A DNA stretch of 64,000 nucleotides from a virus (lineage: Duplodnaviria > Caudoviricetes): IMG/VR virus record IMGVR_UViG_3300023283_000076, positions 64,001-128,000 of that record; one strand, written 5' to 3'. Positions 6,186 to 20,452 of the stretch are shown in pieces. The translations under genes and the position numbers were made by a program. The notes under the pieces are model-generated. The model did not search any database, had not been told where the DNA came from, and was given only the letters and a program-made list of their open reading frames with translations. How positions within the stretch are numbered: the stretch's first letter is position 1; the number at the start of each line of letters is the position of its first letter.

Positions 6186-6322
6186 ATTAAAGGCACTAGT
6201 TCAATTTAATAATACTCAATGTATATAAGGTGACAGACCTTAAAGTATTTATTAATATAAACATGTAGGCAATTTCTCTTACTTTATCTTAAACTTTTTT
6301 AATAACATAAGGAGTTATTGAA

Positions 6323-6604: not shown

Positions 6605-6799
6605 GAGTAAAAATGCTAAGTCATATTTTCAAATTCCCATATAACGAAAAAGAGTTACGTCAAATAACCCTTGAATCTATGGAAAATGACATAACATCCT
6701 TTATTAATGATATTATGTATGCTTTGTTATTAAATTAATTATTGACATTTACAATTCTCTGTGATATATTAGAAACTACACGCTAATTAGGATTTCTCT

Positions 6800-7078
6800 A
6801 TGAGATTTCTAAAGAATAAGAAACGTACCATCGAAGTATGGTTTTGGCATGGTGCGGTAAAGTTAAATAGGGCGCTAGTGCTCGAAATTCTTGCCTCTGA
6901 ATTACATAAATTGGAGTTGATGTATGAAGGGCCAGAACGTGACCAGAATGTACTAGGTATTCGATATTATGGGACAGTAGATGATTTTATAAATGCTCTT
7001 CCTAATCGTCCTGTAATGAAACTAAGCGATCCGGATATCATTTATACAACTCAATTTAGAAATTTCTCTCAAAGGTGA
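6800..7078 (+). CDS. hypothetical protein
   Basis: downstream of TTGACA promoter. Confidence 0.6.
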   Translation: MRFLKNKKRTIEVWFWHGAVKLNRALVLEILASELHKLELMYEGPERDQNVLGIRYYGTVDDFINALPNRPVMKLSDPDIIYTTQFRNFSQR

Positions 7079-7081
7079 ATA

Positions 7082-7660
7082 ATGGAATTTAAATTTATGC
7101 CAAACATACATAATATAGTTTATAACGCAATCCGTACCCCTGACGGGACCGTTCTTGAGTCTCGTCACCGTCATGATTATGTAGAATATACTGACGAAAA
7201 TGGTTATGAGTATATGGTGGACGGTGGTTTAGAGTATCTTCGTAGGGGATGGACACCTGATGCCCCTGATTATAAAGAATTGTCATTAGGTATTGATGAT
7301 CCTCATGGGAAAGTTCGTGAACATGCTAAATGGGGAACATATGGACCTAATGGAGATCAACCATTAAAATTTGTGACTATTAAAGAAATGTCAACAGATC
7401 ATATTAACGCATGTTTGGAAAATGTTCCTAGTATGTCTGATAAGATTCGTACTGTCATGGAAAATGAATTGACCATGAGAGAGCTTCCGCCAGTACCTAA
7501 AGGTATGATATACTTGGGTATGTCTGGTGATTTCAATCCTGTCCACGTCGATATTCGTGCATGTTTTTTGAAAGGTGATGAAGATTGGATGACATGGGAA
7601 AAAGATGTATTAGATGGTGATGGTTTTTCTTTACATTATGCCGGATATATTTCGAATTAA
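7082..7660 (+). CDS. conserved phage hypothetical protein
   Basis: NAIRTPDG..LESRHRHDY...VDGGLEYLRR recurring phage pattern. Confidence 0.75.
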   Translation: MEFKFMPNIHNIVYNAIRTPDGTVLESRHRHDYVEYTDENGYEYMVDGGLEYLRRGWTPDAPDYKELSLGIDDPHGKVREHAKWGTYGPNGDQPLKFVTIKEMSTDHINACLENVPSMSDKIRTVMENELTMRELPPVPKGMIYLGMSGDFNPVHVDIRACFLKGDEDWMTWEKDVLDGDGFSLHYAGYISN

Positions 7661-7694
7661 TTTAATTAAAAAGAAAACGAATAGAGTATAGAAA

Positions 7695-8027
7695 ATGATA
7701 TAAGAAACAGCACTAGATACCGTTTACGTTGTAAGGAAAAATGCGGATATGACCGAAGGCAGAGGCCCTATGGTTATTGTTTGTATATTCTCTGATCGAA
7801 AGGATGCAGAAAACTATATTGATAATAAACTGGGAGTAATGGGACGGAAAGCAGAGTGATCAACGGTGAAATATGGTGATTGGGATGTAAAAGAATATCC
7901 TCTCTATCATAGTTTAGAATTATTGGAAAAAAATGAGAAAGATGAGATGGCAGCAGAAGCTCACACAAGTGCTCTCAAAAAACTCACCGACAGAGAAATT
8001 GAAGCCCTTAAAAAAATAGGAATATAA
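7695..8027 (+). pseudogene. phage hypothetical gene with two in-frame stops (TAA 7701, TGA 7857)
   Basis: frame reads MI*ETALDTVYVVRKNADMTEGRGPM...GRKAE*STVKYGDW...KKIGI* and fills the gap between neighbours. Confidence 0.6.
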
Positions 8028-8030
8028 CCC

Positions 8031-8255
8031 ATGACATGTGAAAATAACACACGTAAAATGCCTAACGGTGAACTAACTGATAATGTATATGAATATCTAG
8101 ATAGTTGGCAAGAAATTTGCTCTGCTGTAGAAAAGAAAGGATTAACCGTAATCGGGTTTGATCCGGGGATAACAGTTCAAGACAAGGATCACCCTCACAT
8201 AACATGTGGTATGCCTCTTACTATTGTGAAAAAATTTCTTGACAATGGACATTAA
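8031..8255 (+). CDS. hypothetical protein
   Basis: co-oriented ORF. Confidence 0.6.
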   Translation: MTCENNTRKMPNGELTDNVYEYLDSWQEICSAVEKKGLTVIGFDPGITVQDKDHPHITCGMPLTIVKKFLDNGH

Positions 8256-8273
8256 AAATGGTATAGTATCAAA

Positions 8274-8486
8274 ATGAAAGTAAAAATTAGACATATAGAT
8301 AAAACGGTTTCAACATTTTTCACTGAATGTAAATTTACAGAATTTTATTTGATGATAAATTTTATCAATGAAGTTGGTGGAATTTATTATACTGAAACTG
8401 CGGAGTATGAACCAATCGTAACATGGTATCTTTGTGTTGATAATAATGAGTGTTATGCTGAAATTATCGTAGGAGAACATGAATGA
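8274..8486 (+). CDS. hypothetical protein
   Basis: co-oriented ORF after promoter. Confidence 0.6.
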   Translation: MKVKIRHIDKTVSTFFTECKFTEFYLMINFINEVGGIYYTETAEYEPIVTWYLCVDNNECYAEIIVGEHE

Positions 8487-8803
8487 TTAACAATGAATAC
8501 GAAACAGGACCAGGACCTCTTATGGTGCATATTACCTCAGAATATTATCAAACTCTTCTATGGGCTAGTGAGTCTATTCCAAAGCTGGTGGTAAATCTAG
8601 CAAAACGTGAACTTGAACTAGCTAATAAAAACCGTATTGATGAAAATGAATGGCCAGCGGGTCAAAGTTGGAAAGATTTAGGAAATTCAAGTAAACAAAT
8701 ATTCGTGCGTAGAGCATGTGAATCGGTTGAAATTGATCCAGAAAAATATATTAAGTTGATACGTGATCATACACCAGATCGTATTTTGAAAGAGATTGAT
8801 TGA
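8483..8803 (+). CDS. hypothetical protein
   Basis: ATGA overlap with upstream gene, AGGAG SD. Confidence 0.65.
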   Translation: MINNEYETGPGPLMVHITSEYYQTLLWASESIPKLVVNLAKRELELANKNRIDENEWPAGQSWKDLGNSSKQIFVRRACESVEIDPEKYIKLIRDHTPDRILKEID

Positions 8804-8864
8804 TGAATCATACATTAGAGTGTTGACACTTTTACTAAATAGTGGTATCATTATTTTATTAACT

Positions 8865-8941
8865 GCCCGAATAGCCCAATTGGCAGAGGCGTTTGACTTA
8901 GAATCAAAATGTTGGGGGTTCGACTCCCTCTTCGGGCACCA
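8865..8941 (+). tRNA. tRNA-Leu(TAG), short variable loop
   Basis: TTTGA-CTTAGAA-TCAAA arm, GCCCGAA/TTCGGGC, CCA. Confidence 0.92.
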
Positions 8942-8948
8942 AATTTTT

Positions 8949-9025
8949 GCGGATGTGACGGAATTGGCATACGTGTCAGATTCAAAATCTGAATTTTGTG
9001 GGTTCGAGTCCCACCTTCCGCACCA
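8949..9025 (+). tRNA. tRNA-Leu(CAA), short variable loop
   Basis: TCAGA-TTCAAAA-TCTGA arm, CCA. Confidence 0.92.
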
Positions 9026-9033
9026 ACATAAAC

Positions 9034-9111
9034 GGGCAGGTAGAGAATTGGAATATCGGCTGGACTTAAAATCCGGTGTCATTGTGGGTTCGAGTCCCAC
9101 CCTGCCCACCA
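9034..9111 (+). tRNA. tRNA-Leu(TAA), short variable loop
   Basis: CTGGA-CTTAAAA-TCCGG arm, GGGCAGG/CCTGCCC, CCA. Confidence 0.9.
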
Positions 9112-9180
9112 TTTCATAATATATGGAATTTAAATATATTAACTTTAACTCAAAATACTCATAGAAAAATTGAAACGTGC

Positions 9181-9402
9181 ATGGACGAAGCTTATACCAA
9201 GGTTATTGAGCTTCTTGCAGAAGAACTATGTGGAAAGCATGTAAGACTCTCAAATGGTGTTGCTATATTGGATGCGAATGGAGAGTATTACATAGATTCT
9301 ATTTCAGACTACAGCCCAAATGAAGAATCTGTTTATGTGGGTGTCCTTTCCAATGTTGATCCACAATTTTTTGATGAATTTGCATTAGTAGATGAAATAT
9401 AA
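9181..9402 (+). CDS. hypothetical protein
   Basis: MDEAYTKVIELL...; start moved from the ORF-track start, which lies inside a tRNA. Confidence 0.55.
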   Translation: MDEAYTKVIELLAEELCGKHVRLSNGVAILDANGEYYIDSISDYSPNEESVYVGVLSNVDPQFFDEFALVDEI

Positions 9403-9703
9403 TTAATATGGATTTAGTTATGTATCGTAATAATATAGATCCTATACCTAAAAGAGAAGAGGAAGAAGACTATGATTAGACGTATTATTTTAACATTTTT
9501 ACCTTGGTGTATACTTGTAACTATTGCATGTGTTATCGCAATCCAGATTAATGCAAGTTTATCTATTGCGATATTATTAGGCGGAATTTCAAGTACAATT
9601 GGCGTAGTTAGTGGAGTTTTAATATATGATAACATTGAGAAATGATTAATATAGAAGAAACTCTTGACAAAACTGCTAAATAGTGTTAATATTAATTGAA
9701 TAT

Positions 9704-9789
9704 GGGTGAGATGGGAGAATCGGTACTCCTGCCGGGCTGTAACCCCGGTGCCTTAGTGCATGTTGGTTCGAATCCAACCTCACCCACCA
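9704..9789 (+). tRNA. tRNA-Tyr(GTA)
   Basis: CCGGG-CTGTAAC-CCCGG arm, long variable arm, CCA. Confidence 0.88.
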
Positions 9790-9848
9790 GATGAAGAAAT
9801 ACTTGATTAAAGTTTTCAAAAGATGTAATATTAGATAAATAGAAACAT

Positions 9849-9925
<77 letters not shown>

Positions 9926-9931
9926 ATTTAC

Positions 9932-10007
9932 ACCCTTGTAGCTCAACTGGAAGAGCAAGAGATTTCTACTCTCTAGGTTGCGGGTTCGAGTCCTGCCGAG
10001 GGTGCCA
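9932..10007 (+). tRNA. tRNA-Arg(TCT)
   Basis: AGAGA-TTTCTAC-TCTCT arm, GCCA end. Confidence 0.92.
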
Positions 10008-10019
10008 GAATTTAAAAAT

Positions 10020-10103
10020 GGGTAAGTCTGGTACGGGTGAACCAAGCTGACTGTACATCAGTGTCCTCTGGACTTGGACGTTCGAGTCTCTCCCTACCCA
10101 CCA
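10020..10103 (+). pseudogene. degenerate second tRNA-Tyr(GTA)
   Basis: GCTGA-CTGTACA-TCAGT arm and CCA present; T-stem GGACG/CTCTC mostly unpaired, acceptor mismatch. Confidence 0.65.
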
Positions 10104-10280
10104 ATTGTTTTTATAAATAATGTTGCTTATATATTGAATATATGTTATCATAAATATAATAATGAATAATAGGTATCAATATAAAGCTAACTATTCTAAT
10201 AGAGTTTTACGATGGTTAAGAAATACTCCACGTAAAGAAATCTATGAATGGATTGAAGAGCAGAAGCGTAAGAAATATAA

Positions 10281-10406
10281 GGGTGTGTAGCTCAGCGGTT
10301 TAGAGCGTCCGACTGTGGAAGTTGTGGGATACGTAGATCAGGTTCAACTCCTGAAACTTCAAAGGTAATCGGATGGTCGTAGGTTCAAATCCTACCACGC
10401 CCTCCA
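10281..10406 (+). tRNA. tRNA interrupted in the anticodon loop by a 49-nt insert (Asn GTT or Thr GGT after removal)
   Basis: perfect D-arm GCTC/GAGC, TCCGA/TCGGA anticodon stem, GTAGG-TTCAAAT-CCTAC T-arm, GGGTGTG/CACGCCC-TCCA; extra sequence 10317-10365. Confidence 0.85.
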
Positions 10407-10410
10407 ATTT

Positions 10411-10701
10411 TTGACCCCCCTTCATGTTTTAGTTTGCCATACCTATAAAATCGAGAATAGTAATGTTAGTAAACAAACCTTAAAATCTAGATATTTGAAA
10501 CACAGGGAAACTCTTGACATTACTTTCGAATGTGATATAATAGACTGTAAAATATCAAAATGGTATGGTAAAAAATTGAATCTTCAATTAGATCATATCA
10601 ATGGTATAAATAATGATAACAGGTTGAAAAATTTAAGATTACTTTGTCCTAATTGCCATAGTCTAACGGAGACATTTGCAGGGCGAAAGAAATTACAATA
10701 G
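10411..10701 (+). CDS. HNH endonuclease (probably N-terminally truncated)
   Basis: LQLDHINGINNDNRLKNLRLLCPNCHS; internal TTGACA..TATAAT promoter near 10514-10541. Confidence 0.75.
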   Translation: MTPLHVLVCHTYKIENSNVSKQTLKSRYLKHRETLDITFECDIIDCKISKWYGKKLNLQLDHINGINNDNRLKNLRLLCPNCHSLTETFAGRKKLQ

Positions 10702-10770
10702 GTACGAGCATAGATTGCCGACCAGATTTGGAATCTGGGAGAGAGATTTCGATTATCTTCGCACCCGCCA
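10700..10770 (+). pseudogene. atypical tRNA-like gene, anticodon TGG, minimal D-arm
   Basis: CCAGA-TTTGGAA-TCTGG, GAGAT-TTCGATT-ATCTT, GCCA end; D-arm only GCA-TAGAT-TGC; two acceptor mismatches. Confidence 0.6.
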
Positions 10771-10786
10771 AATTAAAAATGTAATA

Positions 10787-10860
10787 GACAGGATGCCAGA
10801 GTGGTAATGGGCGTGGTTGCAACCCACGAGTCGAGGGTTCGATTCCCTCTCTTGTCTCCA
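10787..10860 (+). tRNA. tRNA-Cys(GCA)
   Basis: CGTGG-TTGCAAC-CCACG, U73, CCA. Confidence 0.92.
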
Positions 10861-10870
10861 AAGTTTCAAT

Positions 10871-10948
10871 GGTGAGTGTGGCGGAACTGGTAGACGCACC
10901 TGACTGTGAATCAGGCACTTGTGGGTTCGAGTCCCATCATTCACCCCA
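10871..10948 (+). tRNA. tRNA-His(GTG) with G-1:C73
   Basis: CCTGA-CTGTGAA-TCAGG, GGTGAGTG/CATTCACC, CCA. Confidence 0.93.
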
Positions 10949-10954
10949 ATTTAA

Positions 10955-11027
10955 ACAAGACTGGTCCTCGCATGACTGTCCCGATAGTAAGAGCAAAGGT
11001 CGTTAATTGATTTGCCACCAGTCTTGT
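10955..11027 (+). ncRNA. structured RNA of unknown family, copy 1
   Basis: 11-bp closing stem ACAAGACTGGT/ACCAGTCTTGT; near-identical copy at 17582-17653. Confidence 0.6.
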
Positions 11028-11043
11028 ATTTTCTTTAAACATA

Positions 11044-11118
11044 AAAATCATCCCGTTCGGGATGATTTTCTATTATTATCTGTTATTTTAATTGAATCAT
11101 CCCGAACGGGTTGATTTC
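11044..11118. terminator. pair of mirror-image hairpin terminators where convergent operons meet
   Basis: AAAATCATCCCG-TT-CGGGATGATTTT and AATCATCCCG-AA-CGGGTTGATTT. Confidence 0.7.
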
Positions 11119-11396
11119 ATGTTTATAATTTAATTACGCATTTCCTAGATAGTACTCTACTGGCGGCGCTTCTACACTAAAATCTGGTTCTTGCATTTTT
11201 TGCTGATTTTCTGCGCACTCATTAAACATTTTAATATGTTTTAATGCGCTGTCTAACGCATCTTTAGTTTTTTTCTTCATCAGTTAAAGGTTCACCATTA
11301 GAAGTACCTTTTCTAATATCAAGACTTTTGGACGCACCAGTAGTAGCCATAGCCATCCAATAATGTGCATAGAGTTCATGCATTTTCTTTTGATCT

Positions 11397-11687
11397 TCAA
11401 TTTTCATTAGTGTATCCTCTCATCCATTCTACGATACCTATAGCCCATTTCTTACCATAATCAATATGGCCATATGCATTACTTTCATATCGTTCAATTA
11501 TATTTAGGGTAGGTTCTTTTAGATTGTCTCTTTTAGCTATTTCACAAGCTTTTCTATAAACAGCAATCCGTTCACGTTTAATCCACTCATTAGAATGATA
11601 TTCTCTATGTTTTGCTACATCTTGAAAAGTATCATACAGTTCTGTAGTAATAGAATCATGTGTCGGTCTGAAAAAATCGTGTTTCAT
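11397..11687 (-). CDS. hypothetical protein
   Basis: part of minus-strand operon 11.1-13.7 kb. Confidence 0.65.
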   Translation of the reverse strand: MKHDFFRPTHDSITTELYDTFQDVAKHREYHSNEWIKRERIAVYRKACEIAKRDNLKEPTLNIIERYESNAYGHIDYGKKWAIGIVEWMRGYTNEN

Positions 11688-11902
11688 TATTTATCTCGCT
11701 GTTGAGCTGGCATAATTGCATCACATACTGCATGAGATGCCCCATTTTCGCATGTGGAAATTGTGACTAAAACAATAATAACCATGATAGGAACTATAAT
11801 TATGAATATCATTGGAAGATATCCAAGACCAGTCATAATATTTCCTACAGTATTGTCCAGAAAACTTCCTAACTGCTTGATATTTTTAAAATTATCACCC
11901 AT
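11687..11902 (-). CDS. small membrane protein
   Basis: hydrophobic segment; TAATG coupling. Confidence 0.6.
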   Translation of the reverse strand: MGDNFKNIKQLGSFLDNTVGNIMTGLGYLPMIFIIIVPIMVIIVLVTISTCENGASHAVCDAIMPAQQRDK

Positions 11903-11973
11903 TTCATTTGTTTCCTGTATTTAATGATTAATTATAATAACATATATATTTGTGGATGTCAATTGGAGGAAGG

Positions 11974-12064
11974 TGGAGGAAGGTGGAGGAATCGAACCCC
12001 TATCGGCTCTTCACCGATACCCCGGATTTCAAGTCCGGTTGCCAGCCACTTAGCGGCACCTTCC
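11974..12064 (-). tRNA. tRNA-Ser(TGA) with 8-bp acceptor / 4-bp T-stem
   Basis: GGAAGGTG/CACCTTCC, GGGG-TTCGATT-CCTC, CCGGA-CTTGAAA-TCCGG, long variable arm, U73-CCA. Confidence 0.85.
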
Positions 12065-12088
12065 AGTATATTGCGTTATTTATAATGA

Positions 12089-12165
12089 TGGTACGGGTGG
12101 TGGGATTCGAACCCACACTGTGCGGATTTTAAGTCCGATCTCTCTGCCAATTGGAGTACACCCGC
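12089..12165 (-). tRNA. tRNA-Leu(TAA), second copy, short variable loop
   Basis: CGGA-CTTAAAA-TCCG, GCGGGTG/CACCCGT, CCA. Confidence 0.88.
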
Positions 12166-12173
12166 TTAAAAAA

Positions 12174-12740
12174 TCAATTCGTATCGTCTTTTTTACCTTT
12201 TAATTCTGGATATTTCTTATACATTTTAGAAACAAAATCATTTATTTCTCTATCTTCCTCTTCATTATAAAGCGGGGCTATTTTATCATTAGTTTTTTGT
12301 TGAAATTCTGTAATAGTATCAATGATATTTAATGCATTAACATGAATATGTTTTTCGACCAGTATTCTATCATATAATTGATTAATTGTGGTATCTAAAT
12401 ATTTACTTTTGTTAAACATGGATATAAGTTTAATAAGCCCATATGCAGACACTAAAACTAATACCAATTGCAATAATGTATTATCGCTACCATTGGTAAA
12501 CATAAGAAATATAAAACTAGAAACAATAATATAAAATATTTCTTTTGTATGATAAAGAATTTTATGTTTGAAAATAAAATCAAATTGATTTTTATGTAAC
12601 ATTGTTTGAGAATGAACCTGAGACCATAAATTATTTTTAATTAACGTGAGTTCTCTATCATTCTTGAGTGCTTCGGAGTTTTCGTTATTCTTTAAATTAT
12701 TTTCAATTGTATTAATTAGTTTCTTAACTCTTTTATTCAT
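12174..12740 (-). CDS. membrane protein with two TM segments
   Basis: hydrophobic central region flanked by charged coiled segments. Confidence 0.65.
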   Translation of the reverse strand: MNKRVKKLINTIENNLKNNENSEALKNDRELTLIKNNLWSQVHSQTMLHKNQFDFIFKHKILYHTKEIFYIIVSSFIFLMFTNGSDNTLLQLVLVLVSAYGLIKLISMFNKSKYLDTTINQLYDRILVEKHIHVNALNIIDTITEFQQKTNDKIAPLYNEEEDREINDFVSKMYKKYPELKGKKDDTN

Positions 12741-12920
12741 TTCAAAACTCTTGTTAAAATAGTGTGTATAAATTGTACCATAAAAATACGAAAAAGCTAA
12801 TAGTGCATAACACTAAACAGCATTCTGGTAAATATTTTTTCATATTAATCCTATTATAAACATTCTAATTATAATTTATAAATTACAATTAGAGCATCCA
12901 ACCTAATCAGTTATTTATTT

Positions 12921-13154
12921 CTACGGCGAAATTTTGTTTCCCATATTATCTAAGATATAAACATGAGGAACATTTGCCATTCTAACTTCATGTTTATAAA
13001 AATCCAACATTTGTATAGATTCAAACATATTTGCCTCATTAACAATTCGATCATCTGAAATAATACGTGATGGATCAAACGAAACATGTGTGCCATATGA
13101 ATGAAATGTATAAGTAGAACGATTTTGTGATCTCTTACGTACAACTCTTTTCAT
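12921..13154 (-). CDS. hypothetical protein
   Basis: AAGGGA SD, co-oriented. Confidence 0.55.
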   Translation of the reverse strand: MKRVVRKRSQNRSTYTFHSYGTHVSFDPSRIISDDRIVNEANMFESIQMLDFYKHEVRMANVPHVYILDNMGNKISP

Positions 13155-13287
13155 GTGTATAGTTCCCTTCTTTTTATAATTTAAGTTAATAATTAAAGTA
13201 CGTAGTTAAGTATGTAATTAACTACTCGTTAAGTATATATGAATACGGGCATGTATGTCAAACCATTAACGTATGCGTTAGCAGTTT

Positions 13288-13701
13288 TTAGTGTTTGATC
13301 CATGCAAAGCCATTATGTGTAATACATATTACGATATGCTTGAACAACCGTAAAATTAAAACTCCTTCATCACAATCTTCAACAATAATTTCACTACTTG
13401 GTATTATAAGGAATTTTTCTTTGATTGTTTTCAATTGTACATTTTCCATAAAATCTGGTGTAAGAATCTTGATCATTTTCTTCAACGCTTTATCAGCATC
13501 TGGTCTTGGAAGAATTGTATCATATCCTGTTCCTACACATTCAGGACATTCCCATTCATCATAAGAGATATCTCCTATATCAGCATTGTCTATATATCCT
13601 AGACCCATACATTCAAGACACTTTTTAGAGTTCAATTTATTTTTTTCTTTATTGTATAGACTAGTGTCTTTTTTCATAAAACACTCCATTTGTAAATCCA
13701 T
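13288..13701 (-). CDS. protein with DnaJ-type Zn-finger motifs
   Basis: CLECMGLG and CPECVGTG (CxxCxGxG). Confidence 0.65.
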   Translation of the reverse strand: MDLQMECFMKKDTSLYNKEKNKLNSKKCLECMGLGYIDNADIGDISYDEWECPECVGTGYDTILPRPDADKALKKMIKILTPDFMENVQLKTIKEKFLIIPSSEIIVEDCDEGVLILRLFKHIVICITHNGFAWIKH

Positions 13702-14073
13702 TGCAAATGATTATCATTCTCTAAAAATTAATATTTAATTTACGAATACGAATCATTCGCATTAACTTGATTTCATATTTCACCCTTTAGTATAACAGAA
13801 AAAAAAATTAAATCAAGGGTTGACATTGTATGTATTATATGGTAAAGGTATTAAAATAGGAATTAAAAAAAGACTTGCATTCTTTTGGTGGATATGATAT
13901 ATTACACATTCGCATTCAAAATATTGGAGTTTAATACATGGAACATCGTTAATGGAGAAATATTCTGAAATGGTGTTTACCGAACCCAAGTAAAATAATT
14001 GTATATTGGTATTGACAACCGTATAATGCTGGTGTATACTGAGCACTCTCAACAATTAAACAGGAGTTAACAC

Positions 14074-14820
14074 ATGAAATTTGTCGTATATGAATCGGAG
14101 TCTGGTTGCAAGTTTCGTTGTACTGAGGCACAGCAAGAGACTCTGAGAAAGCTGGAAACAATCGTTAAAGGCGGTATTGGTACCGTTCATGGTTATACGA
14201 TGAAATCTGGCCGTGTGAAACCCGAAAAGGCCGATATCCAGTTTCTTACTGCATTCTCTACTGAGCGTCTTTATAAGCGTCGAATTGCAGCACTCGAATC
14301 TATCAGTTATGATGACATTGCTGATAATCTTCCAGACAATCCGAAGTTGACGAAACTGACAGAAGATGAGCGCAGAGAAGTGTTCAATACTCGCCGCCAA
14401 AAGGAAATCGAGAGTTATCAGAAGTCTCTTGATGGTGACCGTAGTGATTCGCATCGTCAAGCGCATGATCGGTGTTATTGTAAGATTGGACAAGGTGTTA
14501 AGGTTCACTATCGTACCGAAAAAGATGCTGATGGTATTCGCCAGCCGATTATGGTTAACGGTTTGCCTGTTGTAGAATCTATCATGCTGACGATTCTTGA
14601 AATCAAGCGTAAGGTAATCGAACCGGGCGAGTATAAGAAGGTCAATTCTGGCGCTCCGGTGCTTATCTCTAATACGATTAAGTCTACCATGAATCTTCGA
14701 TCAGTCGGTCTTAAGACTCTTTCACTGAAAGAAGATAACTTCGACAGGCTTGTACTGGACAAGACGGAGTTTTTGCCTGAACAGGTTGAAACCATTCCGG
14801 CTGACTTGTTTATCCGATAA
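14074..14820 (+). CDS. early phage protein of unknown function
   Basis: own TTGACA..TATACT promoter, AGGAG SD, hairpin terminator after stop. Confidence 0.8.
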   Translation: MKFVVYESESGCKFRCTEAQQETLRKLETIVKGGIGTVHGYTMKSGRVKPEKADIQFLTAFSTERLYKRRIAALESISYDDIADNLPDNPKLTKLTEDERREVFNTRRQKEIESYQKSLDGDRSDSHRQAHDRCYCKIGQGVKVHYRTEKDADGIRQPIMVNGLPVVESIMLTILEIKRKVIEPGEYKKVNSGAPVLISNTIKSTMNLRSVGLKTLSLKEDNFDRLVLDKTEFLPEQVETIPADLFIR

Positions 14821-14887
14821 AAGTTTGATATACTCCAAGGGTCAGTCGTTAATCGGCTGACCCATTTCTCAACACTTAGGAGAGCAA

Positions 14888-15193
14888 ATGAATAAACTTC
14901 AATTTAATACTGGTGGTGATGCATATGGTACGAGTTTGAGAGGATACGTCACGACTGTATTTGATCAACTCGTGGAAATTTTCGGGGAGCCTGAGCTTGG
15001 ACCCAATGCCGGTGATGATGACGACAAGGTTACGTGTGAATGGGTAATTACATTTGCCGATGGGGCAGTAGCTACTGTTTATGACTGGAAAACTGACGGC
15101 ACTCCAAAAACCTTGTATAATTGGCATATTGGTGGGATGAAAAACACTGACGTTGTAAATCGTATCAATGCATTGGTAAATAATTGTCTTTAA
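14888..15193 (+). CDS. conserved phage hypothetical protein
   Basis: AGGAG SD; FGEP...KVTCEW...TVYDWK...WHIGG recurring phage pattern. Confidence 0.75.
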   Translation: MNKLQFNTGGDAYGTSLRGYVTTVFDQLVEIFGEPELGPNAGDDDDKVTCEWVITFADGAVATVYDWKTDGTPKTLYNWHIGGMKNTDVVNRINALVNNCL

Positions 15194-15216
15194 TTATAGA
15201 ACATGAGAATTGACAA

Positions 15217-15405
15217 ATGACAGAACGAAAAACATACATTTGTAATCATTGTGGTAGTGATGAAATACTCTTTGATGCATGGGTTGCATGGGATGTTGAA
15301 AATCAATGTATGAGCATCACTACAACAATGGATAAAGGGCATGTATGCGAGAATTGCAATGGTATATCTACTGATCCTATTGAAGTAAATTTAAAGGAAC
15401 TATGA
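15217..15405 (+). CDS. small Zn-ribbon protein
   Basis: CNHCGS ... CENCNG. Confidence 0.65.
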   Translation: MTERKTYICNHCGSDEILFDAWVAWDVENQCMSITTTMDKGHVCENCNGISTDPIEVNLKEL

Positions 15406-15503
15406 TACTGGAACTCTTAAATGTACTCTCGGCAATTGCAGTAATCTTTGTTACAGGGATGATTGCAGGTGCTAAACTCATACTCAAATTGATGAAGAAA
15501 TAA

Positions 15504-15701
15504 ATGGAATTGAATCAATGTCAATATGGTGTTTTGGTTGAAAGCGAACATGGTGAAATTGGTATGATTGTTGGGATCACGAATAATGCAAAAAGCGCAG
15601 AGCTTTCTGTACGCAAGAAAAAAATTCATGCAATTCCAATAGTTCAATGGTCTTATGGAGAAACCAGCAGTATTCATTACGAAAACATCAAGAAACTCTA
15701 A
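15504..15701 (+). CDS. hypothetical protein
   Basis: co-oriented ORF. Confidence 0.5.
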   Translation: MELNQCQYGVLVESEHGEIGMIVGITNNAKSAELSVRKKKIHAIPIVQWSYGETSSIHYENIKKL

Positions 15702-15943
15702 TATTCTATTGAAAGGGGATAAGATAATTTTTATTCCTAACATAGAGCCTTTATCATATATTTTAAATAATGTCAAGAGTTTTTTTAGTTGACTTTTTGA
15801 GTATTCTATGATAATATTTTAAGAGTTTAAATAATGGAAACAATGAGGCAAAGTCATGTGTGTACATAAAGTCACGGTAAATTTAAATGTATTGAACCGT
15901 AAAAAAAGTTGACAATTGTTTCCCCATATGCGATACTACAGTT

Positions 15944-17344
15944 ATGAATGATAATATCCTAGTAGGAAAAGGCGAAGAGTCGCAAGTACATTTACTTGGA
16001 CAATATGCAAATCGTCATGGACTTGTTGCCGGTGCTACTGGTACTGGTAAAACTGTGACCCTGATGATGTTGGCCGAAGGGTTTTCCCGTATGGGTGTAC
16101 CTGTATTCATGGCTGACGTTAAGGGTGATATGGCAGGTTTGGCAATGCAAGGTAACGACAATCCAAAAATTCTCGAACGTGCTGAAAATATCGGTATTGA
16201 TAATTTTTCGTTTAATGGAAATCCTGTATCTTTCTGGGATTTATGGAACAATTCAGGCAATCCAATTAGAACGAGTGTCGAAAGTATCGGTGCCACCTTG
16301 ATGGCTAGAATGCTCGATGTTAGCGATGCTCAAGAAGGTGTATTAGATGTTGCATATCATTATGCAAGAGAACGTAATATTGCACTTAATACACTCAAAG
16401 ATTTTAGAGCTTTGCTGACGTACATGGCACAAAATAGAGAATTTATCAGCACCGAATATGGATTGATAAATTCAAATAGCATTGGAGCTATTCAGCGTCG
16501 ATTGCTCACACTGGAAAACGATGGAATCGATAATTTTTTTGGCACACCTGCATTAGAATTATCGGATTTTATGCGAAATCAAAATGGTAAGGGTATAATT
16601 AACATTCTTTCTGCCGAGAGTTTAATCTTGCGTCCTAGAATGTATTCTACCTTTTTGCTTTGGCTGCTATCAGAGTTGTTTGATAAGATGCCAGAGCTAG
16701 GTGATGTTGACAAACCTGAATTAGTATTTTTCTTTGACGAAGCCCACCTATTATTTGATGATTGTTCAGGTGCATTGCTTCGTAGAGTTGAACAAGTGGT
16801 GAGATTGATTCGTTCCAAGGGTGTAGGTGTATACTTTTGTTCGCAGAACCCTGATGATATTCCTGAGACTGTCCTAGGGCAGCTTGGAAATCGTGTTCAG
16901 CATGCTTTAAGGGCGTTCACGCCTAGAGACCAAAAGGCTGTTAGAGCGGCTGCTGAGACGTTTGTAGAGAATCCTAATTTTGATGTTGGTGATGTTATAA
17001 CCCGTCTAGGCGTTGGTGAAGCATTAACTTCAATGTTAGATGACAAAGGGATTCCGCAACCAGTTCAACGCACAATGATTTCTCCACCGCAATGTCGGCT
17101 TGGTACAATCAGCCATGAAGAGAGAATGCAAATTGTCGATAATGATTCATTGAAAAGAAAATATAGTAACGACAATAATGTAGACACTACTAATAAATAT
17201 GATCCACGGGATGACTTTGATGATACGATTGATTATTGGAACATTGAGCCATCAAAAAATATCAATCCTGAACCAGAGTCACCTGATAATTTTGTAACAC
17301 GGTTTATGAATGAATTTAGAAAAGCATTAATGTTTAAAAATTAA
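15944..17344 (+). CDS. HerA/FtsK-like ATPase of the DUF853 (YjgR) family
   Basis: ANRHGLVAGATGTGKT, ADVKGD, FFFDEAHLLF, RLIRSKGVGVYF, QLGNRVQHALRAFTP. Confidence 0.88.
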   Translation: MNDNILVGKGEESQVHLLGQYANRHGLVAGATGTGKTVTLMMLAEGFSRMGVPVFMADVKGDMAGLAMQGNDNPKILERAENIGIDNFSFNGNPVSFWDLWNNSGNPIRTSVESIGATLMARMLDVSDAQEGVLDVAYHYARERNIALNTLKDFRALLTYMAQNREFISTEYGLINSNSIGAIQRRLLTLENDGIDNFFGTPALELSDFMRNQNGKGIINILSAESLILRPRMYSTFLLWLLSELFDKMPELGDVDKPELVFFFDEAHLLFDDCSGALLRRVEQVVRLIRSKGVGVYFCSQNPDDIPETVLGQLGNRVQHALRAFTPRDQKAVRAAAETFVENPNFDVGDVITRLGVGEALTSMLDDKGIPQPVQRTMISPPQCRLGTISHEERMQIVDNDSLKRKYSNDNNVDTTNKYDPRDDFDDTIDYWNIEPSKNINPEPESPDNFVTRFMNEFRKALMFKN

Positions 17345-17445
17345 TTAAAAACAAATGATCAGAAATATTGTCGAAAAAGTCTTGACAATCTTTGATAAAT
17401 AGATTAGACTGTAGTTGTGATGATAAATCACACATGTAAACAATA

Positions 17446-17558
17446 CGATGAAAAAGCGGTGGACAAGAGTACATCGCGGGGCAACCCTACAGTATCGGCC
17501 ATGCTGATCCGGTGATGGTGACAAAGATACTGTGAGTCGGACGCCAAGCGACCGGCCC
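17446..17558 (+). ncRNA. candidate multi-stem structured RNA
   Basis: CGATG/CATCG, GGG-GCAA-CCC, ACAGTATC/GATACTGT and GTCG/CGGC stems downstream of promoter at 17382-17410. Confidence 0.5.
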
Positions 17559-17581
17559 AAAAAAATTCTCGTTAATAGAAA

Positions 17582-17653
17582 ACAAGACTGGTCCTCGCAT
17601 GACCGTCCCGATAGTAAGAGCAAAGGTCGTTAATTGATTGCCACCAGTCTTGT
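17582..17653 (+). ncRNA. structured RNA of unknown family, copy 2
   Basis: matches 10955-11027 except one T/C change and one T indel. Confidence 0.6.
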
Positions 17654-17919
17654 ATTTTAAAAATGTCCTTTCTTGGGCGGTATATCAGCAACTATAAAAA
17701 GCGCGGGGATGGACAGCCCCTTAATAAATGATATATTAACCCTTTTTCTTTTCACCTATAGGAGAAAAGGCCCGATTCATTTGGGCCTTTTATTTTTCCT
17801 ACACTAGGACCTTTACCATAAAACTGAATGTATTGTCAAGGAAAATAATAATAAATATCCCTTGACCTTTGAACGAATATTCGGTATAGTGTTATACATA
17901 ATTTAAGAAAGGAGTTGCA

Positions 17920-18087
17920 ATGAACACGTACAAGAAGATTTCTCGTTATGGTCCGGGTGGCCGTAATTGCAATTGTTGTGGTCCTGCTCCTCGGCATCGT
18001 AAGACACATGATCGTATGGTTAAGCGTCGTGAGCGTCAGTATACTAAGAAAGAAGTAGAACAGGAAATGATGAACGTAAATCTCTAA
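17920..18087 (+). CDS. small basic Cys-rich protein (55 aa)
   Basis: AAGGAG SD; MNTYKKISRYGPGGRNCNCCGPAPRHRK...; translated by hand. Confidence 0.7.
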   Translation: MNTYKKISRYGPGGRNCNCCGPAPRHRKTHDRMVKRRERQYTKKEVEQEMMNVNL

Positions 18088-18200
18088 AACCCCCTTGACA
18101 TATATGTTTTTTAAGATACAATAGTAAGTATAAATAAAGTAGTTCCGAAGAAACCCTTAATATAAGTCGATTTGAAAGGCTTAAAACAAAAACTCATGAA

Positions 18201-18330
18201 GAACAAACTAGACGCAGAATTAGAAACTCTGCAACGAAACAGGGTCCGGAGGGAATGCCGGTAGAATGGTAGGATAGCGCCTATCACGTTGCCCCGCTAG
18301 GTAATTGCCAATCCCTAGCCTAGTTTGTTC
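18201..18330 (+). ncRNA. candidate 130-nt multibranch RNA upstream of tRNA-Lys
   Basis: 11-bp closing stem GAACAAACTAG/CTAGTTTGTTC with several internal hairpins. Confidence 0.55.
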
Positions 18331-18343
18331 ATTTTTAATCTTT

Positions 18344-18420
18344 GGGTCTGTGGCGCAATTGGCTAGCGCAGTGGACTTTTAATCCATTGGTTGTGAGTTC
18401 GAGTCTCACCAGACCCACCA
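18344..18420 (+). tRNA. tRNA-Lys(TTT)
   Basis: GTGGA-CTTTTAA-TCCAT, GGGTCTG/CAGACCC, CCA. Confidence 0.95.
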
Positions 18421-18717
18421 ATTTTATTACATAGAAAGCCCATTGGAGAAAAAATGGACAGCCGAAAAGAAGGAATTACAGTAAAACAACACAGCGATGG
18501 GCAGAACAGGGTTTTGACATCGTGGGATATCATGGATATACTATGGGAAGTATATTTTTACTAATTAATGTATGGTATCTTCTTAGAAAGGTCCCGGATA
18601 ATGGAATTATGTATAGTGCATACCTTATGCGATGGGGTGATGATAATGTAGAAGCGATAGATGCAATTAAACCGAATTAACGCTTGACAGATGAAATGAG
18701 ATATGTATAATAGGTTG

Positions 18718-19049
18718 CAAGTGGTCGTTTCAGAGTAAAAGCCGTAATTCAATCGGGCTTTGTACTTTAGATTGAACTAGATATTGCTGGCTGTAGGGTA
18801 ATATCATCACGTATCTACAGGGCGAGGCTACCGTCTTAGCAGTCAACATATAGTCTCAGTCTCGCAGAGACTTTATAAAACCCAGTGAGCGCGAGATTAA
18901 CTGGAAAACAATAACTGGCAGGTTGGGAGAGCGACCCAATGCCCTTGGCGACAAGGTAGCGTAGTGTGACCAGATTATGTAGAGAACGTGCAAACCTTAT
19001 TCTAGATAAGTTAGGCTAGGAGACGAGAAACTTCGAAGAATCAAATTCA
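18718..19049 (+). ncRNA. candidate large structured RNA (about 330 nt)
   Basis: promoter TTGACA-N16-TATAAT at 18684-18711; many stems, GCGA tetraloop, loop-loop complementarity; no long ORF. Confidence 0.55.
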
Positions 19050-19191
19050 GGGCACATTGTAGCAGTCTGTGAAGCGTGGCCCGCGTGGAGACTGCTATTT
19101 CAATTTCAACGGTAAATGCTCTCACCGGAGAAAATATCCACCATCGAGGGTGGTGGGAGATGTAGGTACCAAATCCTACCGGTGCCCACCA
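19050..19191 (+). ncRNA. 142-nt tRNA-like RNA ending in ACCA
   Basis: GGGCAC/GTGCCC-ACCA, GTAGG-TACCAAAT-CCTAC T-like arm, CCACCA-TCGAGGG-TGGTGG arm. Confidence 0.65.
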
Positions 19192-19264
19192 TCTTTAAAA
19201 AATTCTTGACATTAAGATGACTTTGCATTATGATGTAAAATCATATCAATAAAGGATCATATAA

Positions 19265-19582
19265 ATGAAATCAATTGAAGAATGGAGCGCAACACGTTGG
19301 ATTTTTACCGCAATGGCATCTATCATTGCAATATCAGTATTTTTCTTTGTACTGGCATCTGCCGGATTGATCGGTGAAAAGGTGGTGGAGAGAGAAGTAT
19401 TTGAAAATAGTTTTCAATATAGTGAAGCACGAAAAACTGCCATCGCTACATATGAAGCACAGTTGGCTGAAATTGATTCCCAACTTCGAAGCACCAATCT
19501 TTCAGAACGTGAAAGAAGTAATCTACGCTCCCAAGCCGCCCGTCTAAGGGTTCTACTACAAACCGAAAGGAGAAAACAGTAA
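19265..19582 (+). CDS. single-TM membrane protein, partner of downstream lipoprotein
   Basis: N-terminal TM then VEREVFENSFQY and coiled segment. Confidence 0.75.
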   Translation: MKSIEEWSATRWIFTAMASIIAISVFFFVLASAGLIGEKVVEREVFENSFQYSEARKTAIATYEAQLAEIDSQLRSTNLSERERSNLRSQAARLRVLLQTERRKQ

Positions 19583-19740
19583 TGAAAAATATTTTTAATG
19601 TGCTAGCCGCAGTAGTCGTCGTCTTTGTCATGGAATGGAGCGCAACACGTTGGATTTTTACCGCAATGGCATTTATCATTGCAATATCAGTATTTTTCTT
19701 TGTATTATCATCTGCCGGATTGATCGGTGAACCCGTCTAA
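19582..19740 (+). CDS. chimeric 52-aa hydrophobic ORF made by local duplication
   Basis: first 17 codons copy the lipoprotein signal; remainder copies the TM segment of 19265..19582. Confidence 0.55.
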   Translation: MKNIFNVLAAVVVVFVMEWSATRWIFTAMAFIIAISVFFFVLSSAGLIGEPV

Positions 19741-19774
19741 GGGTTCTACTACAAACCGAAAGGAGAAAACAGTA

Positions 19775-20341
19775 ATGAAAAATATTTTTAATGTACTAGC
19801 CGCAGTATTCGTCGTCTTTGTCATGGCAGGCTGTCAAGATACGTCTACAACTGCCGAAAGTGAATCTGTCATGAAACAACAGAAGCAGATGCTTACTAGC
19901 CAGCCTATTCCATCATTCAACTGGTCATTGGAACGTGACCTTCTGATTCAGTTGTATAATATTCGTAATGAACGTGTCAGCACCCATAGTGTATGGCGCA
20001 GTAATCATGGAATGGTTGAAGGTGATTGTCCGTCTATTGGATATGGCATTCCCTATGATACTTCTTTGACCAACCCACAGCGAGCTACGGCCCAAGCTGC
20101 TGACAAACGATACACTTCTGAATCTCTAGCCACAATTGAACAAGCTGAACCTAATGGTATCTTCGCCAGTAAGAATACGGCAGCTACATGGGTATTCTGC
20201 GTGGGTAGTGCGGGGGCGTTGAATCCAGTATACGTCGAAACCAAGGTTACTGCATATCCGTATCCAGTTGAGGTTGATTATGAGACCAACAGGGTTACTC
20301 AAGCTGGTGAATCAAGTGTTAATGTGACAGTTAACCGCTAG
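19775..20341 (+). CDS. lipoprotein
   Basis: AAGGAG SD; MKNIFNVLAAVFVVFVMAG-C lipobox. Confidence 0.8.
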   Translation: MKNIFNVLAAVFVVFVMAGCQDTSTTAESESVMKQQKQMLTSQPIPSFNWSLERDLLIQLYNIRNERVSTHSVWRSNHGMVEGDCPSIGYGIPYDTSLTNPQRATAQAADKRYTSESLATIEQAEPNGIFASKNTAATWVFCVGSAGALNPVYVETKVTAYPYPVEVDYETNRVTQAGESSVNVTVNR

Positions 20342-20452
20342 ATTAATTGAAAAGTAGTCAATATAATAATGAAACAGGGGGCTCCCCTGTTTCTTTTTCA
20401 ACAGAATGTAAGTTTCCCTTGACATTTACAAAAATAATGGTATATTGAAACC

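What the first reader, a model, noticed from the sequence alone, without database searches (positions are those of the whole stretch)
19050..19191. 142-nt tRNA-like RNA with a greatly expanded D-arm region
The 3' half is tRNA-like: a 6-bp arm with 7-nt loop TC-GAG-GG (the real Leu(GAG) here has TT-GAG-GG), a 5-nt variable loop, a T-like arm and GTGCCC-ACCA pairing with 5' GGGCAC. About 83 nt, including a 10-bp GTAGCAGTCT/AGACTGCTAT hairpin, replace the D-arm. T4 encodes CCA-ended stable RNAs of about 120-140 nt and unknown function. Inference: a tRNA mimic or decoy. This is the second tRNA scaffold carrying an insertion in this window.
Basis: partly seen in the sequence, partly recalled or inferred. 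Interest (0 to 1): 0.65.

Follow-up and report, generated by a model that had tools for sequence, protein, structure and literature searches.

The report
tRNA-derived CCA-ended RNA in jumbo phage
An uncultured giant phage carries a 142-base RNA module whose back half clearly comes from one of the phage's own tRNAs and whose front half is a long extra hairpin. It resembles the old, unexplained "species 1" RNA of phage T4, but it occurs in this one genome only, so its function is unproven.

Summary
19050-19191 folds as described: a 6-bp GGGCAC/GTGCCC closing stem, a 10-bp hairpin, a CCACCA/TGGTGG arm with loop TCGAGGG, a 5-nt linker, a GTAGG/CCTAC arm and an encoded ACCA (dG -56.1, z -3.8).

It folds independently within a roughly 473-nt transcript from a perfect promoter at 18684-18711. 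The last ~36 nt are significantly similar to this phage's own tRNAs, so that part is tRNA-derived. The T loop has 8 nt (TACCAAAT versus TTCAAAT).

It is not a tRNA or tmRNA by any test: Rfam and ARAGORN find nothing, there is no D arm, position 33 is C, and there is no G3-U70.

Conservation is poor. An inverted paralogous copy in the same genome keeps 18739-19109 but lacks the whole tRNA-like 3' part. Two related strain contigs lack the entire 18429-20380 cassette. No homologue turned up in phage, IMG/VR or JGI metagenome searches.

Best reading (about 0.4): a non-decoding, tRNA-derived module cut out by RNase P and 3' trimming. It resembles T4 species 1 RNA in architecture but is not homologous to it. 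The main rival (about 0.3) is a functionless tRNA relic.

No look-alike was noted on other DNA.

The parts
18684..18711 (+). Perfect sigma-70-type promoter (TTGACA, 16-nt spacer, TATAAT); transcription should start near 18718
   Evidence: 12 of 12 matches; sequence
18718..19049 (+). About 330-nt non-coding upstream RNA, co-transcribed with the module; no ORF longer than 45 aa on either strand
   Evidence: kept in the paralog; two compensatory changes in the two-copy consensus fold, but the single-sequence folds disagree
19050..19055 (+). Acceptor-like 5' strand GGGCAC; inferred RNase P site between 19049 and 19050
   Evidence: the cleavage is inference
19059..19098 (+). Long hairpin: 10-bp stem plus an inner 5-bp GC stem, sitting where a D arm would be. 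It is followed by UUUCAAUUUC, so it could also act as a weak terminator of the upstream RNA
   Evidence: fully kept in the paralog, where one U-G to C-G change keeps the pairing
19099..19137 (+). A/U-rich 39-nt spacer with a weak 4-bp hairpin. Homology with the paralog ends at 19109
19138..19156 (+). Anticodon-like arm: 6 bp with loop UCGAGGG (C at position 33). It can close to 8 bp with a GAG triloop. Its 3' strand GAGGGTGGTGG is the ribosome-binding site of the ORF in the paralog
   Evidence: the same UC-NNN-GG loop occurs in the phage's tRNA-Pro(GGG)
19157..19161 (+). 5-nt variable-loop-like linker GAGAT
   Evidence: aligns with GAGAC of tRNA-Met
19162..19179 (+). T-like arm: GTAGG/CCTAC with 8-nt loop TACCAAAT. 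Several tRNAs of this phage have GTAGG-TTCAAAT-CCTAC
19180..19191 (+). CG, then the acceptor-like 3' strand GTGCCC, discriminator A and encoded CCA
   Evidence: 44 of 48 tRNAs of this phage also encode CCA
19206..19234 (+). Next promoter (TTGACA, 17-nt spacer, TATGAT) driving the 105-aa membrane/coiled-coil ORF at 19265-19582. No terminator lies between the CCA and this promoter

Best explanation
This is a non-decoding RNA module derived from a tRNA. It forms the 3' domain of a roughly 473-nt primary transcript made from the strong promoter at 18684-18711.

Proposed mechanism. The acceptor-like stem stacked on the T-like arm gives 6 bp, an A-G mismatch and 5 bp, followed by an encoded ACCA. 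That is the minimal shape that bacterial RNase P and the tRNA 3'-trimming nucleases recognise. RNase P would therefore cut between 19049 and 19050, and the AU-rich trailer would be trimmed back to CCA. This would yield a stable 142-nt CCA-ended RNA and free the ~330-nt upstream RNA from the downstream mRNA.

It cannot act as a normal tRNA. It has no D arm or elbow, an 8-nt T loop, and an anticodon-like loop that collapses to a triloop.

What is shown: the fold, its independence from the rest of the transcript, the tRNA ancestry of the last ~36 nt, and the promoter context. What is inferred: the RNase P cut, the CCA end, stability, and any role in trans.

It works like T4 species 1 RNA (rnaC), whose function is also unknown.
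For: Fold z -3.8, with no shuffle folding as well.

All helices have pair probability 0.9-1.0 within the transcript 18718-19191, so the module folds independently of the upstream RNA.

The linker, T arm and acceptor strand are similar to the phage's own tRNAs well beyond shuffles: 19 versus 9.7 +/- 1.3.

All three short stems are perfect Watson-Crick, while the departures from a tRNA sit in loops and junctions.

CCA is encoded, as in 44 of 48 tRNAs of the phage.

This is the only non-tRNA module of this kind in the genome, against 0.067 expected by chance.

The layout 'perfect promoter, then a long structured non-coding RNA, then a tRNA-shaped element' repeats the neighbouring unit, where the 18095 promoter is followed by a ~210-nt leader and tRNA-Lys at 18344-18420.

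No terminator lies between the CCA and the next promoter, so an end at the CCA would have to come from processing.

T4 rnaC has the same architecture and is kept in 740 phage records.
Against: No conservation. The paralogous copy (genome 15310-15692, minus strand) keeps 18739-19109 but lacks 19110-19264: the 5' strand of the anticodon-like arm, the T arm, the acceptor 3' strand, the CCA and the promoter.

The related strain contigs L041 and L042 lack the whole 18429-20380 cassette. A relative carrying the downstream ORF has the promoter directly before the ORF.

No homologue was found elsewhere.

The 5' strand and hairpin are continuous with the upstream RNA and show no tRNA similarity.

The hairpin followed by UUUCAAUUUC could instead terminate the upstream RNA.

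The T loop is non-canonical, and one extra nucleotide plus a mismatch separate the T stem from the acceptor stem.

If the trailer is not removed, an alternative pairing of 19152-19157 with 19185-19190 competes: tRNA-like fold 0.33 versus 0.58.

Confidence: 0.4

Rival explanations
1. It is a functionless relic or chimera. On this reading the real gene is the ~390-nt upstream RNA, which ends at its own hairpin and U-rich tail (19059-19109). The stretch 19110-19191 is a decaying 3' fragment of a phage tRNA left by recombination in a very plastic cassette region. The 6-nt match between GGGCAC and GTGCCC is then either chance or inherited from a disrupted tRNA.
For: Homology with the paralog stops exactly after the hairpin and its tail, at 19109.

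The 3' part is dispensable in the paralog and the whole cassette is absent in related strain contigs.

The region is full of indels and shuffled promoter-plus-RNA cassettes.

The T loop and position 33 depart from the tRNA rules. Rfam and ARAGORN find nothing.

A 6-mer partner within 150 nt is expected by chance in roughly 3-10% of such modules.
Against: All three short stems are still perfect, which is not what random decay predicts.

The closing stem sits exactly where the module becomes an independent domain with probability ~1.0.

The paralog itself looks degenerate: its ORF is truncated to 76 aa and it has several indels. Its loss of the 3' part therefore says little about the window copy.

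The tail after the hairpin is a poor U tract, and the terminator scan did not flag it.
Confidence: 0.3
2. It is one uncut ~473-nt RNA with a tRNA-like 3' end, comparable to a tmRNA or to the 3' tRNA-like structures of plant RNA viruses. The CCA end would be charged, or used to recruit tRNA-binding factors, for the whole RNA.
For: A single promoter drives the whole unit, and there is no terminator or obvious processing signal other than the tRNA-like shape itself.

Against: There is no match to any Rfam tmRNA family, even at E <= 10; the only permuted-tmRNA hit lies on tRNA-Lys.

ARAGORN in tmRNA mode finds none in the window or the genome.

Position 3-70 is G-C, not the G-U needed for alanine charging.

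In a tmRNA the 5' end of the whole RNA pairs with the 3' end. Here the partner lies 142 nt from the 3' end, which is the geometry of an RNase P substrate with a long leader.
Confidence: 0.1
3. It is a cis-acting leader. The hairpin at 19138-19156 hides a Shine-Dalgarno-like GAGGG that is followed by AUG-UAG (19162-19167). On this reading the stretch is what remains of, or still acts as, a translational control element for the downstream membrane-protein ORF, not an RNA gene.
For: In the paralog the same GAGGGTGGTGG lies 4 nt before the ATG of the ORF and is not sequestered, because the CCACCATC strand is missing there.
Against: In the window the ORF has its own promoter and its own ribosome-binding site downstream (19206-19264). 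These match the arrangement in the relative L034, so the hairpin cannot control the ORF from that promoter.

The T-arm, acceptor and CCA similarity to tRNAs is left unexplained.
Confidence: 0.07
4. It is a working tRNA (anticodon GAG, leucine codons) that tolerates a large insertion in place of its D arm.
For: The loop UC-GAG-GG is one base away from the real tRNA-Leu(GAG) loop. C33 also occurs in the phage's high-scoring tRNA-Pro(GGG). ACCA is encoded.
Against: It has no D arm and no G18-G19 elbow partner, and its T loop has 8 nt.

It has a short variable region, whereas bacterial leucine tRNAs are class II, and the real one here is 88 nt.

Rfam tRNA model: no hit at E <= 10. ARAGORN: no call even after 1040 in-silico deletions.
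Confidence: 0.03

Closest known systems
Phage T4 species 1 RNA (rnaC, 139 nt; AF158101 70908-71046)
   Same: Almost the same size (139 versus 142 nt). Encoded in or next to a phage tRNA cluster.

Same architecture in the predicted fold: the 5' and 3' ends form an acceptor-like stem stacked next to a T arm, a long hairpin occupies the 5' half, and a second hairpin sits where the anticodon arm would be.

Function unknown in both.
   Different: No sequence or covariance-model similarity.

T4 rnaC has a canonical T loop (UUCGAAU), and no CCA is encoded after its annotated end.

rnaC is kept in 740 phage records, mostly at 95-100% identity. The element here is confined to one genome and is already lost from its own paralog.
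Canonical tRNA (Rfam RF00005), including this phage's own 48 tRNAs
   Same: The linker, T stem, acceptor 3' strand, discriminator A and CCA are homologous to the phage's tRNAs. The anticodon-like arm has tRNA dimensions and spacing.
   Different: No D arm. 8-nt T loop. 6-bp acceptor stem with one mismatch and one extra base. About 82 nt where 17-19 nt are expected. Not detected by Rfam or ARAGORN.
tRNA-like 3'-end processing modules of long non-coding RNAs (MALAT1/mascRNA, NEAT1/menRNA, Arabidopsis GUT15; PMC8457004, PMC6152437)
   Same: A long structured non-coding RNA is followed directly by a tRNA-shaped element. Cutting that element with RNase P would create the 3' end of the upstream RNA and release a small tRNA-like RNA.
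   Different: Those are eukaryotic, and their CCA is added after cleavage. Here the CCA is encoded and processing is only inferred. No bacterial or phage example is known to me.
tmRNA and bacterial or phage Y-RNA-like (YrlA) RNAs with tRNA-like domains
   Same: Non-decoding RNAs that contain an acceptor/T-arm mimic.
   Different: No Rfam hit to any of these families. No G3-U70. No tag reading frame of the usual kind. The tRNA-like domain is closed locally, not by the ends of the whole RNA.

Membership tests
tRNA (RF00005) | Match to the tRNA covariance model or a tRNA-finder call | tested here: not met
   No RF00005 hit on 19050-19191 at gathering score or at E <= 10. No ARAGORN call, nor for any of 1040 constructs with the expanded region deleted in silico.
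tRNA (RF00005) | D arm with G18-G19, and a 7-nt T loop (UUCRANY) forming the elbow | tested here: not met
   The D-arm position holds a 40-nt hairpin plus a 39-nt spacer. The T loop is UACCAAAU, 8 nt.
tRNA (RF00005) | 7-bp acceptor stem with discriminator and CCA; 5-bp anticodon stem with a 7-nt loop and U33 | tested here: inconclusive
   Six Watson-Crick pairs plus an A-G mismatch and one extra C; ACCA is encoded. The anticodon-like stem has 6 bp and a 7-nt loop, but position 33 is C, and the loop is predicted to close to a triloop. C33 also occurs in the phage's real tRNA-Pro(GGG).
tmRNA | Match to a tmRNA model or an ARAGORN tmRNA call | tested here: not met
tmRNA | G3-U70 alanine identity pair, and a tag reading frame ending in a hydrophobic ...AA tail | tested here: not met
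   The third pair is G-C. The only frame through the spacer would end ...GWWEM (read), which is unlike known tags.
T4 species 1 RNA (rnaC) | Sequence or structural-profile homology to rnaC | tested here: not met
   blastn of 18400-19300 against 50,697 phage records gave no match. The covariance model of the element finds nothing in the T4 genome.
T4 species 1 RNA (rnaC) | About 140 nt, in a phage tRNA region, with a terminal acceptor-like stem, a T arm and an expanded 5' half | tested here: met
   side by side; tRNA context. This shows likeness of design, not membership.
RNase P-released tRNA-like module (mascRNA type) | RNase P cleavage at the 5' end of the tRNA-like fold, releasing the upstream RNA | not testable with these tools
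   No expression data could be obtained. Only the substrate-like geometry is seen.

The most novel reading that the evidence does not exclude
The phage has converted one of its own tRNA genes into a non-decoding, CCA-ended tRNA mimic that acts in trans. It might act as a decoy or sponge for a host factor that binds the acceptor/T-arm half of tRNAs, such as a tRNA-cleaving defence nuclease, RNase P, or a CCA-end-binding enzyme. At the same time it would serve as the RNase P-dependent 3'-end maker of the ~330-nt upstream RNA. That would be an independent re-invention of the T4 species 1 design and a first handle on what such RNAs do.

Context: the module lies 630 nt downstream of tRNA-Lys(UUU), and the phage carries an Rnl-type RNA ligase.
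Probability: 0.08. Interest if true: 0.7.

Novelty: new variant of a known kind. Interest (0 to 1): 0.35.

Why it matters
T-even phages have carried a conserved ~140-nt tRNA-like stable RNA (species 1) for as long as they have been studied, and nobody knows what it does.

A second, unrelated example is visibly derived from a phage tRNA and sits behind its own strong promoter and a long structured RNA. It would suggest that phages repeatedly turn tRNA genes into non-decoding, CCA-ended RNAs, and it would give an independent system in which to ask why.

It would also be the first bacterial-world candidate for the MALAT1/mascRNA trick of using a tRNA shape to cut a long non-coding RNA free.

The weight of this is limited. 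The element is known from a single uncultured genome, it is not conserved, and nothing is known about its expression.

Tried and rejected
Homologue searches that found nothing:
- blastn of 18400-19300 against 50,697 phage records.
- Exact-pattern scans of IMG/VR with two stretches. One gave no hit. The other gave a single chance hit in a high-GC provirus, sharing only a 26-nt stretch.
- Two scans of JGI metagenome contigs, with the T-arm/acceptor/CCA stretch and with an upstream hairpin.
- The covariance model R1 of the 142-nt fold on the Xanthomonas phage XacN1, Xoo-sp13, Stenotrophomonas phage RAS14 and T4 genomes.
- DNA search of the same three relatives and of five IMG/VR fragments with 73-93% identical capsid genes.

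Relatives reached through neighbouring genes:
- The HerA-like ATPase gave contigs L028-L030, L041, L042 and L045. The 105-aa ORF gave L031-L034 and L036.
- None carries the RNA.
- L037 and L038 are the same phage at 100% identity and add nothing.

Other attempts:
- The tmRNA reading was rejected.
- A simple 'tRNA with an insertion' was rejected.
- tRNA ancestry of the 5' part is not significant: 10 versus 9.9 for shuffles.
- No loop-to-transcript complementarity of the T-like or anticodon-like loops was found.
- Literature searches for the T4 species 1 RNA found no held paper. What I say about it rests on the GenBank annotation and my own folds.
- The apparent extra conservation of the RNA in the paralog (92.7% versus 84%) is an artefact of indels. 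Excluding gaps, the RNA and the adjacent ORF are both about 96% identical.

Full report
WHAT IS THERE. The window is bases 64001-128000 of a 270,653-bp IMG/VR record of an uncultured T4-type jumbo phage. Its gp23 capsid protein is 65% identical to that of Xanthomonas phage XacN1. The genome has 48 tRNA genes.

The stretch 17345-19264 has no ORF longer than 63 aa. It contains several consensus promoters, tRNA-Lys(UUU) at 18344-18420, and the finding.

The minimum-energy fold of 19050-19191 has these parts:
- a 6-bp GGGCAC/GTGCCC closing stem;
- a 10-bp hairpin with an inner GC stem;
- a weak 4-bp hairpin in an A/U-rich spacer;
- the CCACCA/TGGTGG arm;
- the GTAGG/CCTAC arm;
- a free ACCA end.

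The fold has dG -56.1 kcal/mol, against -41.5 +/- 3.9 for shuffles (z -3.8). In the context of the whole predicted transcript, 18718-19191, all these helices keep pair probabilities of 0.9-1.0, so the 142 nt form a self-contained domain. If the trailer up to 19264 is kept, an alternative pairing of GGUGGG (19152-19157) with CCCACC (19185-19190) competes: 0.58 against 0.33.

IS IT MORE THAN CHANCE? A loose tRNA-shape descriptor finds 0.55 chance hits per random genome of this composition, so the shape alone is not compelling. A stricter one requires a perfect T stem, a T-loop-like motif, NCCA and a perfect 6-bp 5' partner within 150 nt. It expects 0.067 hits per genome, and this is the only hit in the real genome that is not a called tRNA.

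The stronger argument is homology. The last ~36 nt (linker, T arm, acceptor strand, ACCA) align with the phage's own tRNAs at a local score of 19. Shuffles give 9.7 +/- 1.3, with a maximum of 15 in 200. Several phage tRNAs have GTAGG-TTCAAAT-CCTAC where the element has GTAGG-TACCAAAT-CCTAC. tRNA-Met ends CGGACCCACCA where the element ends CGGTGCCCACCA. So the 3' part descends from a phage tRNA, with one extra base in the T loop and one in or before the acceptor strand.

The anticodon-like loop UCGAGGG differs from the real tRNA-Leu(GAG) loop (UUGAGGG) only at position 33. C33 is not unique to this element: the phage's tRNA-Pro(GGG), a 57.8-bit Rfam hit, has the loop UCGGGGG.

The 5' part (GGGCAC plus hairpin) shows no significant similarity to tRNA 5' halves: 10 versus 9.9.

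WHAT IT IS NOT. Rfam finds no family on the + strand, even at E <= 10. The only hit in the stretch is a sub-threshold Magnesium-II match on the opposite strand. ARAGORN calls neither a tRNA nor a tmRNA. Removing the expanded region in silico in 1040 ways never gives a tRNA call.

The third acceptor pair is G-C, not G-U. There is no plausible tag frame, and the closing stem is local rather than formed by the ends of the 473-nt RNA.

CONTEXT. A perfect promoter (TTGACA, 16-nt spacer, TATAAT; 18684-18711) lies about 340 nt upstream of the module. The next promoter (19206-19234) starts 15 nt after the CCA and drives a 105-aa membrane/coiled-coil ORF. No terminator was flagged between them.

The unit is thus: promoter, ~330-nt non-coding RNA, tRNA-shaped module. 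The unit just upstream has the same layout: promoter at 18095, ~210-nt leader, tRNA-Lys. Of the phage's 48 tRNAs, 44 encode their CCA.

COMPARATIVE EVIDENCE. The genome contains a large inverted segmental duplication of its tRNA region. The second copy (genome 15310-15692, minus strand) keeps window 18739-19109, which covers the upstream RNA, GGGCAC, the hairpin and the following TTTCAATTTCAA. It has a 12-nt insertion right after GGGCACA and lacks 19110-19264. There, GAGGGTGGTGG, which is the 3' strand of the anticodon-like arm in the window, sits 4 nt before the ATG of the ORF as its ribosome-binding site.

A relative with an 83% identical ORF (L034) has the promoter-RBS-ORF arrangement seen in the window at 19206-19267. 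The window arrangement is therefore probably ancestral, and the paralog probably arose by deletion between the two ATGs. The paralog looks degenerate in other ways: its ORF is truncated to 76 aa and it has further indels.

Excluding indels, the RNA and the ORF are both about 96% identical between the copies, so the RNA is not specially conserved. A consensus fold of the two copies of 18737-19112 shows two compensatory pairs and no broken pair. However, the single-sequence folds disagree with it, so this is only suggestive for the upstream RNA.

Two related strain contigs, whose HerA-like gene is 91.5% identical in DNA to the genome's second (paralogous) HerA copy, run straight from tRNA-Lys to window 20381. 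The whole cassette 18429-20380 is therefore dispensable. L034 has no RNA between promoter and ORF. No homologue was found in any collection searched.

HOW IT MOST LIKELY WORKS. I commit to the following, at about 0.4. The module is a tRNA gene derivative that has lost decoding ability but kept the half of a tRNA that the processing machinery reads. That half is an acceptor-like helix stacked on a T-like helix, 12 layers counting the A-G mismatch, with a 3' ACCA.

RNase P would cut between 19049 and 19050, and the AU-rich trailer would be removed back to the CCA. This would give a stable 142-nt RNA and release the upstream ~330-nt RNA from the mRNA of the next gene.

The fold, its modularity, its tRNA ancestry and the promoter context are shown. 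Cleavage, stability and any trans-acting role are inferred from what is established about RNase P minimal substrates and tRNA 3' maturation in bacteria.

The main rival (about 0.3) is that it is a relic. On that view the upstream RNA ends at its own hairpin, and the downstream tRNA fragment is debris in a region where promoter-plus-RNA cassettes are visibly shuffled. Homology with the paralog ends exactly after the hairpin tail, which fits this. The perfect state of all three short stems and the poor U tract do not.

Three further readings are less likely: an uncut 473-nt RNA with a tRNA-like end (0.1), a leftover translational hairpin (0.07), and a working tRNA (0.03).

COMPARISON WITH WHAT IS KNOWN. 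The closest known thing is T4 species 1 RNA (rnaC). In its GenBank annotation it is a 139-nt 'small, stable RNA' at the end of the T4 tRNA cluster. Folded here, it shows a terminal acceptor-like stem next to a canonical T arm (CCGGG-UUCGAAU-CCCGG), a ~60-nt hairpin in the 5' half and a second 10-bp hairpin. That is the same plan as the present element.

It is conserved in 740 phage records. There is no detectable homology between the two, so this element is like rnaC in design but is not a member of its family.

The annotated rnaD end ...CACC is followed by A, but rnaC ends ...CGUA and is followed by CAA.

The MALAT1/mascRNA-type arrangement is the closest mechanistic parallel for the 'long RNA plus tRNA-like cutter' layout, but it is eukaryotic.

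VERDICT. The feature is real, structurally sound and tRNA-derived. It is a new variant of a known kind: the phage tRNA-like stable RNA. It is confined to one uncultured genome, lost from its own paralog, absent from the nearest relatives and without expression data. Interest is moderate to low (0.35).

Noticed in passing
window 18429-20380: The whole cassette is absent from related strain contigs L041 and L042, which join tRNA-Lys directly to window 20381. The cassette holds a small ORF, a promoter, the ~473-nt RNA, a second promoter, the 105-aa ORF and two further ORFs. It is an accessory, probably mobile module that is present in both arms of this genome's inverted duplication.
   Followed up: partly
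window 18740-19049 (and L002:1560-1886, minus strand): This is the ~330-nt promoter-driven upstream RNA. A consensus fold of the two genomic copies shows two compensatory changes: A-U to G-C in a GCUACC/GGUAGC helix whose strands lie about 125 nt apart, and one in a short hairpin. There are three one-sided wobble changes and no broken pair. The single-sequence folds do not agree. No Rfam match.
   Followed up: partly
L002:1887-2160, minus strand (genome about 15693-15960): In the paralog the first promoter copy and the first 25 transcribed bases are followed by a different ~270-nt non-coding insert. That insert ends in a GC hairpin plus a T run. A second promoter then drives the conserved RNA. 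Promoter-plus-RNA cassettes seem to be shuffled as units.
   Followed up: no
L043:84-157, minus strand (genome 131380-131456, outside the window): The phage's tRNA-Pro(GGG) scores 57.8 bits against the Rfam tRNA model but has C instead of the near-universal U at position 33 (anticodon loop UCGGGGG).
   Followed up: partly
window 15944-17344: This HerA-like ATPase (HerA_C, E 4e-184) is 64-67% identical to chromosomal proteins of Wenzhouxiangella and Arenimonas. That points to gene transfer from, and probably a host among, Xanthomonadales-like Gammaproteobacteria. A second copy with 80% amino-acid identity lies in the other arm of the duplication.
   Followed up: partly
genome about 16-38 kb (minus) versus window 348-18420: There is a large inverted segmental duplication of the tRNA-rich region. 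The same tRNA order (Thr, Val, Met, Leu x3, Tyr, Pro, Arg ... Lys) appears on both arms. One aligned stretch downstream of the HerA gene is about 84% identical.
   Followed up: partly
window 19147-19167: GAGG is followed 9 nt later by AUG-UAG, a start-stop pair inside the tRNA-like module. It is probably the relic that became the real ribosome-binding site and start codon of the ORF in the paralog.
   Followed up: partly
window 17920-18087: This 55-aa Arg/Lys- and Cys-rich small ORF has its own promoter. Genes of the same 55-aa size are called at a similar position on related contigs (L028, L030; L038 is this same phage). No Pfam match.
   Followed up: no
genome 146239-146314, minus strand (outside the window): This 76-nt stretch next to tRNA-Gln fits the tRNA-shape descriptor with an encoded CCA, but ARAGORN does not call it. 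It may be an unusual or missed tRNA.
   Followed up: no
genome 48375-48989, minus strand (L044): An Rnl-type RNA ligase domain (PF09414, 70.8 bits) lies in a 410-aa open frame. No CCA-adding enzyme (PF01743) was found in the 79%-complete record. The phage may have tRNA-repair capacity.
   Followed up: no
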